This document shows, piece by piece, positions 12,501 through 13,339 of a DNA stretch of 64,000 nucleotides (within the stretch, counting starts at the first letter, position 1; every line of letters begins with the position of its first letter). The notes beneath the pieces are model-generated. The model saw only the letters and a program-made list of their open reading frames with translations. It made no database searches and was not told where the DNA came from. The translations under genes and the position numbers were made by a program. The stretch is from Mobula birostris (taxonomy: Eukaryota). The DNA lies in NCBI RefSeq assembly GCF_030028105.1, contig NC_092376.1:92006230-92070229 (forward strand). Reading direction: 5' to 3'.

Positions 12501-13058
12501 TACATCTGTTCCTACACTCTGGTTCCCCTCCCCCATTGTGTCTAGTTTAAATCCTCCAGATCCGCTCTAGCAAACCTACCTGCAAGAATATTTGTCCCCC
12601 TCCAGTTCAGATGTAATCCGTCCCATCGGAACAGGTCCCACCTTCCCTGGAAAACTGCCCAATTATCTATAAATTTGAAGCCCTCCCTCCTGTGCCATGT
12701 CTTCAGCCACGTGTTGGTCTGCGCTAACTTGCTATTTCCAAACCCGCCTGCATGTGGCACTGGGAGCAATTCTGAGATTGCTATCCTGGAGGTCCTGTCC
12801 TTTCACTTGGCGCCTAACTCCCTAAACTCACCTTTCAGGACCTCCTCACTCTTCCTACCCATGTCATTGGTCCCTACATGGACCATCACATCCGGCTGCT
12901 CACCCTCCCTCTTGAGAATACAGAGAACTCGATCCGAGATATCGTGGACCTTGGCACCAGGGAGGCAACAGACCATCCGGGATTCTCGATCTCTTCCACA
13001 GAACCTCTTATCTGTCCCCCTAACTATCGAATCCCCTATCACTACTGCTCTCCTCTTG
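9575..13058 (-). mobile_element. Long CR1 LINE: ORF1 SGNH esterase part, ORF2 APE endonuclease + RT, 3' UTR; frameshifted
   Basis: ORF1: VIGDSIVRG, VHVGTND, DGLHLN (12542-13042). Endonuclease: NVRSI, SETW, YYRPP (11947-12417). [16 protein letters not shown] (10436-11290). Confidence 0.96.
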
Positions 13059-13066
13059 CTGATGTA

Positions 13067-13269
13067 AAGTTGATATCAGAAGTTTACATACACCTTAGCT
13101 AAATACATTTAAACTCAGTTTTTCACAATTTCTGACATTTAATCCTCAAAAACATGCCTGTCTTAGTTCAGTTAGGATCACTACTTTATTTTAAGAATGT
13201 GAAATGTCCGAATAATAGTAGAGAGAATGATTCATTTCAGCTTTTATTTCTTTCATCACATTCCCAGTG
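13067..13269 (-). mobile_element. Sleeping Beauty-family Tc1 transposon right IR/DR, nearly complete, no transposase
   Basis: TA at 13065-66, then aagttgatatcagaagtttacatacaccttag ... gagagaatgattcatttcagcttttatttctttcatcacattcccagtg. This follows the reverse complement of the SB right IR as I recall it. Confidence 0.88.
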
Positions 13270-13339
13270 ATGAAACATCTCCAGATCCAGTCTATCTAGG
13301 CCTTTCAATATTATATATGCTTCAATGAGATCCTCCTTC

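What the first reader, a model, noticed from the sequence alone, without database searches (positions are those of the whole stretch)
13058..13275. Sleeping Beauty-type right IR/DR in an apparent elasmobranch genome
Seen: TA followed by ~203 bp containing the outer DR (CAGAAGTTTACATACAC) and ending just short of the inner DR core. By eye it is roughly 90% like the salmonid Sleeping Beauty right IR as I recall it; that figure is not computed. Established: SB was reconstructed from teleost Tc1 copies. Inference: such similarity across the chondrichthyan-teleost split in non-coding DNA points to horizontal transfer, and the genome may hold SB-related transposase copies.
Basis: partly seen in the sequence, partly recalled or inferred. 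Interest (0 to 1): 0.7.

Follow-up and report, generated by a model that had tools for sequence, protein, structure and literature searches.

The report
Sleeping Beauty end in a ray
A ray genome holds a broken 203-base end of the fish jumping gene Sleeping Beauty, 93% identical to the salmon-type element, so the element likely crossed from bony fishes into rays, and this piece was likely copied here from another chromosome together with a neighbouring retrotransposon.

Summary
Confirmed. Window 13067-13269 is the outer 203 bp of a Sleeping Beauty (SB) right IR/DR: 188/203 identical to a 1639-bp element whose transposase is 98.8% identical to the pT2 SB enzyme. The host is a myliobatiform ray (RAG1 95% to a stingray, 57-62% to teleosts). 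The genome holds roughly 2,000 right ends. The family majority is 97.2% identical to the SB-type coding sequence (dS 0.04) and is sister to salmonid SB, so horizontal transfer is very likely; donor and direction are unresolved, and host dS was not computed. A published SB survey lists no cartilaginous fish, but this scan already noted the family on other DNA (this genome and other ray genomes). New here: this piece did not transpose by itself. Its CR1-spacer-TA-IR junction occurs at only one other place (C20), the original site, where SB is full length and is one of two copies that keep the promoter region. The 3.7-kb CR1+IR block sits in an intact target with a 4-bp duplication. A retrocopied read-through RNA is likely (about 55%); a DNA template switch is the close rival.

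The parts
13067..13269 (-). Outer 203 bp of an SB-clade Tc1 right IR/DR; outer DR about 13067-13098, first 7 bases of the inner DR at 13263-13269; element sense is the minus strand
13065..13066 (.). TA: one half of the original target duplication made at the C20 site
   Evidence: C20 element is flanked by TA on both sides
13058..13064 (.). 7-bp spacer, not CR1 sequence; part of the C2H2 zinc-finger repeat at the C20 site
   Evidence: 18 of 18 other CR1 copies continue otherwise; with both insertions left out the C20 repeat spacing of 21 nt is restored (register read by eye)
9574..13057 (-). 5'-truncated CR1-type LINE (esterase-type ORF1 part, endonuclease 11947-12417, RT 10436-11326), cut at the same base as the C20 copy
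   Evidence: (the esterase match was made on the C20 copy, L002)
9567..9573 (-). Short AT tail at the LINE 3' terminus, where likeness to C20 stops
   Evidence: 3' ends of 20 loci compared
9563..9566 (.). Left copy of a 4-bp target duplication
13270..13275 (.). Two extra bases and the right copy of the 4-bp target duplication
9520..9566 (.). Left half of the older repeat that served as target; continues at 13272
   Evidence: contiguous with the right flank in 11 of 14 other copies of that repeat
13272..13340 (.). Right half of the target repeat
   Evidence: loose-end consensus in ray-like run X22

Best explanation
This is a broken, likely inert outer piece of a Sleeping Beauty right end in a ray genome; the family likely entered rays by horizontal transfer from a bony-fish lineage, and this piece was likely retro-copied from a locus on C20 as the 5' tip of a read-through RNA ending in a CR1 element. 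Steps: (1) shown: an SB-clade element about 97% identical to salmon-type SB amplified to roughly 2,000 ends, mostly as two promoterless derivatives; (2) inferred, about 95%: it came by horizontal transfer, donor unknown, direction teleost to ray favoured by the tree; (3) shown by junctions: one full-length copy sits at a TA in a zinc-finger array on C20, and a 5'-truncated CR1 sits 7 bp beyond its right end in the same orientation; (4) inferred, about 95%: the window junction was copied from that locus; (5) inferred, about 55%: a transcript from the SB 5' promoter region or the zinc-finger gene ran through the right IR into the CR1, the CR1 reverse transcriptase took its 3' tail, and the cDNA stopped 203 bases into the IR. 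Lacking the inner DR core and a partner end, the piece would not be mobile.
For: Identity and dS. Tree: 12 ray rows form one clade (98/96), sister to the salmonid/pT2 clade (100/98; union 95/78), with Sparus, Coilia and Prochilodus elements outside. Host. Six coded runs (X1, X2, X4, X14, X17, X24) cover only SB, none of the ray CR1 or zinc-finger DNA, and show the SB-type letters, while X21 and X22 cover both. Copy from C20: the 26-base junction occurs at exactly 2 places with up to 2 mismatches; shared changed first IR base (A in 2 of 86 ends counted, one of them C20); zinc-finger spacer carried along. RNA route: likeness to C20 ends at the CR1 3' terminus; target intact with a 4-bp duplication; all parts in one orientation; the 5' UTR, where the SB promoter was mapped (PMC6446368 passage), is found whole at only 2 places in G000 and one is C20; ray-like run X21 also has next to no depth there.
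Against: The CR1 body of the window is no closer to C20 than to other copies: 92.7-93.7% against up to 93.4-96.4%; agreement at polymorphic sites 13 of 24 in the 3' half (controls up to 15 of 24) and 12 of 15 near the junction (controls 7-13); trees unresolved. The right IR holds three AATAAA motifs on the sense strand that a read-through RNA must pass. DNA-level one-sided copying between CR1 copies happens at this very locus (C8:90.72 Mb). The 4-bp duplication is short and A-rich. For transfer: host dS not computed; L090 and L091 are metagenome contigs of unknown host; the left IR (92%) and 5' UTR (82%) are further from SB than the rest, so salmonids are probably not the direct donor; support for the ray+salmonid branch is 95/78, under the tool's star.
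Confidence: 0.55

Rival explanations
1. Same family and same transfer, but the junction was copied from C20 as DNA: during insertion of an ordinary CR1 RNA at the window site, or in later break repair, the free end invaded the homologous C20 CR1, ran through its 5' junction and 203 bp of SB, and was joined to the target.
For: No shared private changes along the CR1 body; agreement with C20 is better near the junction (12 of 15) than in the 3' half (13 of 24). AATAAA motifs in the right IR. A one-sided, CR1-homology copy of window 6932 to about 12620 exists at C8:90.72 Mb. Templated genomic DNA in L1 insertions is reported (PMC11702581 passages).
Against: Later repair would have to trim exactly to the target duplication. 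It does not explain why the donor is one of 2 copies with the promoter region among roughly 2,000 ends. The site differences are within the noise of a star-shaped family.
Confidence: 0.36
2. Segmental duplication of the C20 region, or an independent SB insertion here, later cut by a deletion.
For: Solo IRs are common in IR/DR families (PMC5224488 passage).
Against: Likeness to C20 stops at the CR1 tail with no zinc-finger DNA beyond it; window flanks are contiguous in 11 of 14 empty copies; an independent insertion would not carry the C20 spacer.
Confidence: 0.04
3. Vertical descent from the common ancestor of rays and teleosts, with strong conservation.
For: Tc1/mariner DNA is abundant in skates and rays in general (PMC12361510 passage); shark and skate genomes were not searched here.
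Against: 97.5% identity in non-coding IR and dS 0.042 across a split dated about 473 Myr in the tree used by PMC7070016, while RAG1 protein keeps 59% overall and 72% in its core; copies decay with stops and dN/dS 0.71 in a sample picked for intact frames.
Confidence: 0.03
4. Contamination of the assembly with teleost or vector DNA.
For: SB is a common laboratory vector.
Against: Copies lie on many chromosome-scale contigs, nested in ray CR1 and zinc-finger DNA, mean 3.8% from their own majority, with ray-specific rearrangements and 50 family-wide differences from the SB type; a Mobula gene model falls in the same clade.
Confidence: 0.01

Closest known systems
Sleeping Beauty / salmonid-type IR/DR Tc1 elements (SB clade of DD34E/Tc1, Jia et al. 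2022, PMC9777934; SB100X, PDB 5CR4; pT2 transposase AFR53956.1)
   Same: TA duplication, two DRs per IR, D153-D244-E279, majority protein 94% identical to the pT2 enzyme, right IR 96.5-97.5% identical.
   Different: Host is a ray; the survey lists SB in 107 ray-finned fishes and one mollusc only. Left IR 92% and 5' UTR 82% identical. 34 of 36 paired-end rows are promoterless derivatives: 20 with a 160-bp loss of UTR and start codon, 14 with an inverted 434-bp copy of the 3' end in place of the left end.
Tc1 transfers between distant fishes (lamprey-teleost, PMC3516227; vertebrate survey, PMC7070016)
   Same: Near-identical Tc1 across a deep split, with decay inside the host.
   Different: That lamprey family was not amplified by PCR from the cartilaginous fishes tested; the survey's genome table showed two chondrichthyan names of six I searched (Callorhinchus, Rhincodon), and neither batoid name (Leucoraja, Mobula).
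LINE-mediated 5' transduction and retrocopies that end in a LINE 3' tail (CR1 3' recognition, PMC8665684; L1 pseudogenes with 3' L1 ends and templated insertions, PMC11702581)
   Same: 3' end at the LINE tail, 5' truncation, target duplication, donor-specific upstream DNA.
   Different: The carried DNA is a DNA-transposon end; the donor LINE is itself 5'-truncated, so the RNA would need an outside promoter; the RNA step is not proven.

Membership tests
SB clade of DD34E/Tc1 (IR/DR) | TA target duplication | tested here: met
   30 of 36 paired-end rows have TA on both sides (50 loci examined, 14 without paired ends); the window has TA on its one end
SB clade of DD34E/Tc1 (IR/DR) | About 230-bp IRs with outer and inner DR | tested here: met
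   DR cores at about 13 and 208-210 in C20, B and C copies as in L090; the window copy keeps only the outer DR and 7 bases of the inner
SB clade of DD34E/Tc1 (IR/DR) | [quoted passage not shown] | tested here: met
   HTH_SB, HTH_Tnp_Tc3_2, DDE_3; D153, D244, E279 in the family majority
SB clade of DD34E/Tc1 (IR/DR) | Groups with SB100X/pT2 rather than more distant Tc1 | tested here: met
   94% to pT2 against 65-67% to the next groups
SB clade of DD34E/Tc1 (IR/DR) | HDR enhancer in the left IR | tested here: inconclusive
   looked only for the full DR core and found two per end; no HDR reference was held
SB clade of DD34E/Tc1 (IR/DR) | Cut-and-paste activity | not testable with these tools
   none of the 119 scored matches began at residue 1
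Horizontal transposon transfer | Element dS far below host-gene dS | tested here: inconclusive
   element dS 0.042 (majority) and 0.044-0.116 (copies); host dS not computed, only RAG1 protein identity 59% / core 72%
Horizontal transposon transfer | Element tree conflicts with host tree | tested here: met
   ray clade lies among teleost elements, closer to salmonid SB than other teleost elements are
Horizontal transposon transfer | Patchy distribution | tested here: inconclusive
   no chondrichthyan SB in PMC9777934; one elasmobranch name (Mobula) among 240 listed protein hits, weak because dead elements are seldom annotated; shark and skate genomes not searched
Horizontal transposon transfer | Not contamination | tested here: met
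CR1 retrocopy with 5' transduction | 3' end at the LINE tail, 5' truncation, target kept with duplication | tested here: met
   the duplication is only 4 bp
CR1 retrocopy with 5' transduction | Donor-specific upstream DNA | tested here: met
   spacer, TA and changed first IR base shared with C20 only
CR1 retrocopy with 5' transduction | Whole insert descends from the donor | tested here: inconclusive
   no signal along the LINE body

The most novel reading that the evidence does not exclude
Sleeping Beauty proper invaded live-bearing, internally fertilising rays and spread to thousands of copies almost wholly as promoterless passengers, one form with two right ends that laboratory models disfavour; one of the two copies that kept the promoter drove a read-through RNA that a CR1 retrotransposon pasted here, a fossil record of SB promoter activity in a ray germ line and of a LINE moving a DNA-transposon end.
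Probability: 0.35. Interest if true: 0.65.

Novelty: new member of a known kind. Interest (0 to 1): 0.47.

Why it matters
It extends the SB clade to cartilaginous fishes, which the dedicated survey (PMC9777934) did not list. External fertilisation has been offered as a reason for the excess of transfers in teleosts (PMC12400950 passage); these rays fertilise internally and bear live young (my own knowledge), so they test that idea. The family is also a natural experiment on SB end rules: the left IR is said to be preferred and to carry an enhancer (PMC5224488), yet 14 of 36 paired-end rows have two right ends with TA on both sides in most. Tc1 transfer among fishes is a known kind of event and this fragment is likely inert, which caps the score.

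Tried and rejected
No SB IR in the plasmid collection and no transposase relative in genome contigs, so no named pT2 DNA was held; L090/L091 and published primers served as reference. Jia et al. supplement: sequences are gapped and cut, and the species tables could not be read; they may bear on which ray genomes were screened. Longer-protein search gave no elasmobranch among 120 listed. Run search gave coded names only; no run held more than 0.63 of the words; 8 of 24 runs were laid; no listed contig bridged the window junctions in X22, which proves nothing. Whether organism J is the host species or a relative is open. The 99.6% copy at C8:90.72 Mb first looked like an IR-free allele; it is a later copy that stops near 12620, before the IR. 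CR1 body trees and site counts could not tell RNA from DNA route. Rows left out: L002 (same as L021) and L018 (same as L017); ends of L001, L002, L018, L025, L026, L045, L090-L093. Two SB papers (PubMed 12082109, 18071335) are not held, so promoter and enhancer claims rest on passages citing them. No fold or complex job was needed.

Full report
Observation. The window reads, on the + strand, CR1 sequence to 13057, a 7-bp spacer, TA (13065-13066), 203 bp of inverted repeat (13067-13269), two extra bases and GAAA. The 203 bp match the right IR of L090 and L091, two 1639-bp metagenome elements, at 188/203.

Host. G000 has 4.0 Gb; the window lies on C8. Its single RAG1 is 95% identical to a Hemitrygon cluster, 82-84% to other batoids, 78-80% to sharks and 57-62% to teleosts: a myliobatiform ray. 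I went no further than this level.

Family. The IR search gave 363 candidates, 40 scored at 92-100%. An exact 34-mer of the right end occurs 586 times; 11 of 38 sampled ends carry it exactly, giving about 2,000 ends, likely a low figure because the sample is of well-kept copies. Of 50 loci, 36 rows had paired ends: 20 lack 160 bp covering the 5' UTR and start codon (1.27-1.47 kb), 14 carry an inverted 434-bp copy of the 3' end instead of the left end (1.44-1.65 kb), and 2 rows are one full-length copy on C20. Two searches found the 5' UTR whole at only C20 and C37 and in part at C1 (counts are lower bounds). Thirty-five copies lie 0.038 (K2P, 0.026-0.052) from their majority, mean pairwise 0.072: one burst, now decayed.

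Transfer. The majority differs from L090 by 2.8% in the coding region (dS 0.042, dN 0.024), 2.5% in the outer right IR and 8.1% in the left IR; the UTR copies are 82% alike. In a 37-row protein tree the ray rows, with a Mobula gene model, are one clade sister to the salmonid/pT2 clade, and other teleost SB-clade elements branch outside. Of 24 runs under 10 organism codes and one faecal metagenome, 8 were laid: six cover SB only, with UTR depth where tested, and two, of one sample, cover ray CR1, zinc-finger DNA and SB, with almost no UTR depth and the 162-base deletion joint in X21. Vertical descent over about 473 Myr (tree file of PMC7070016) cannot plausibly keep a dead element at dS 0.04; this is inference, as host dS was not computed. 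The more divergent left end argues for an unsampled sister variant as donor rather than a salmonid.

How this copy got here. One IR hit, on C20, shares the window's left flank. There the same CR1, cut at the same base, is followed by the same spacer, TA, a full 1624-bp SB and TA, all inside a C2H2 zinc-finger array; leaving out both insertions restores the repeat spacing, so the spacer is zinc-finger DNA and C20 is the original site. Eighteen of 18 other CR1 copies lack the spacer, the junction occurs twice in the genome, and both copies share a changed first IR base. In the window the block runs from the CR1 3' tail to 13269, and its flanks are contiguous in 11 of 14 copies of the target repeat, with GAAA on both sides. 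C20 has since lost CR1 bases equal to 11088-12322. These are the marks of a target-primed insertion whose 5' tip came from C20. Avian CR1s are described as needing a 3' hairpin and microsatellite (PMC8665684), which a read-through RNA would supply, and the donor is one of two copies with the promoter region. Against this, the CR1 body shows no special kinship with C20, the IR holds three AATAAA motifs, and a later DNA-level copy of window 6932 to about 12620 at C8:90.72 Mb shows that template copying between CR1s occurs. Window-only and C20-only changes of about 4% each put the copying close in time to the SB burst.

Known or new. Jia et al. 2022 (PMC9777934; passages, methods section, supplement part 1 and one search; species tables unreadable) found SB in 107 ray-finned fishes and one mollusc, and only ZB-like in one chondrichthyan. 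Paper searches for SB with elasmobranch (0 papers), Chondrichthyes (2), cartilaginous fish, Mobula, stingray and batoid terms (whose 25 listed papers held neither SB nor Tc1) showed no report of SB in rays; the library lacks most subscription journals, and Repbase and Dfam were not searchable. PMC12361510 reports Tc1/mariner expansion in skates and rays without the word horizontal (passages); a 2026 mobulid genome preprint has no mariner or TcMar term in its main text (passages; supplements closed). Other papers seen as passages: PMC5224488 (also its cloning section), PMC6446368, PMC7070016 (also a supplement search), PMC12400950, PMC3516227, PMC8665684, PMC11702581. Three earlier notes of this scan describe the same family on other DNA; I read them after my reading was set and did not check their loci.

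Verdict. A real SB right end in a ray, a new host group for a known family reached by a known kind of event, with an unusual local history. Interest 0.47.

Noticed in passing
window 6932-about 12620 and G000:C8:90.72 Mb (L116 6846-10000, L117 1-3971): A 99.6% identical copy of this stretch is pasted into another full-length CR1 at the position equal to window about 12610: a recent one-sided, homology-started duplication 1.3 Mb away.
   Followed up: yes
L009, L010, L012, L014, L019, L062, L064, L069, L070, L074, L075, L076, L083, L086: SB derivative with two right ends (434-bp inverted arms); arms within a copy are 89-97% alike, about as between copies (92%).
   Followed up: partly
L094 (G000:C37:17.98 Mb): Second full-length SB copy with a 5' UTR, 1644 bp.
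   Followed up: partly
P0176: A Mobula hypostoma gene model named 'endoribonuclease LACTB2 isoform X2' contains an SB transposase piece of the ray clade; probably an annotation running into a transposon.
   Followed up: partly
L017 and L018 (C1874, C932): The same SB copy with the same flanks on two small contigs; likely duplicated haplotype pieces.
   Followed up: no
window 1-3400 and 59200-61200: 39-bp minisatellite and a 38/143-bp composite satellite.
   Followed up: no
window 4308-6247 and 47674-50488: Two young CR1 copies, 92-97% alike, with long open ORF2 stretches of 624 and 483 aa.
   Followed up: no
window 21616-24668: Broken LTR-retrotransposon pol-like frames (RT- and integrase-like by eye).
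   Followed up: no
L006 1709 onward: Another right IR that stops at the same inner-DR position, followed by a different repeat; possibly a second element inserted there.
   Followed up: no
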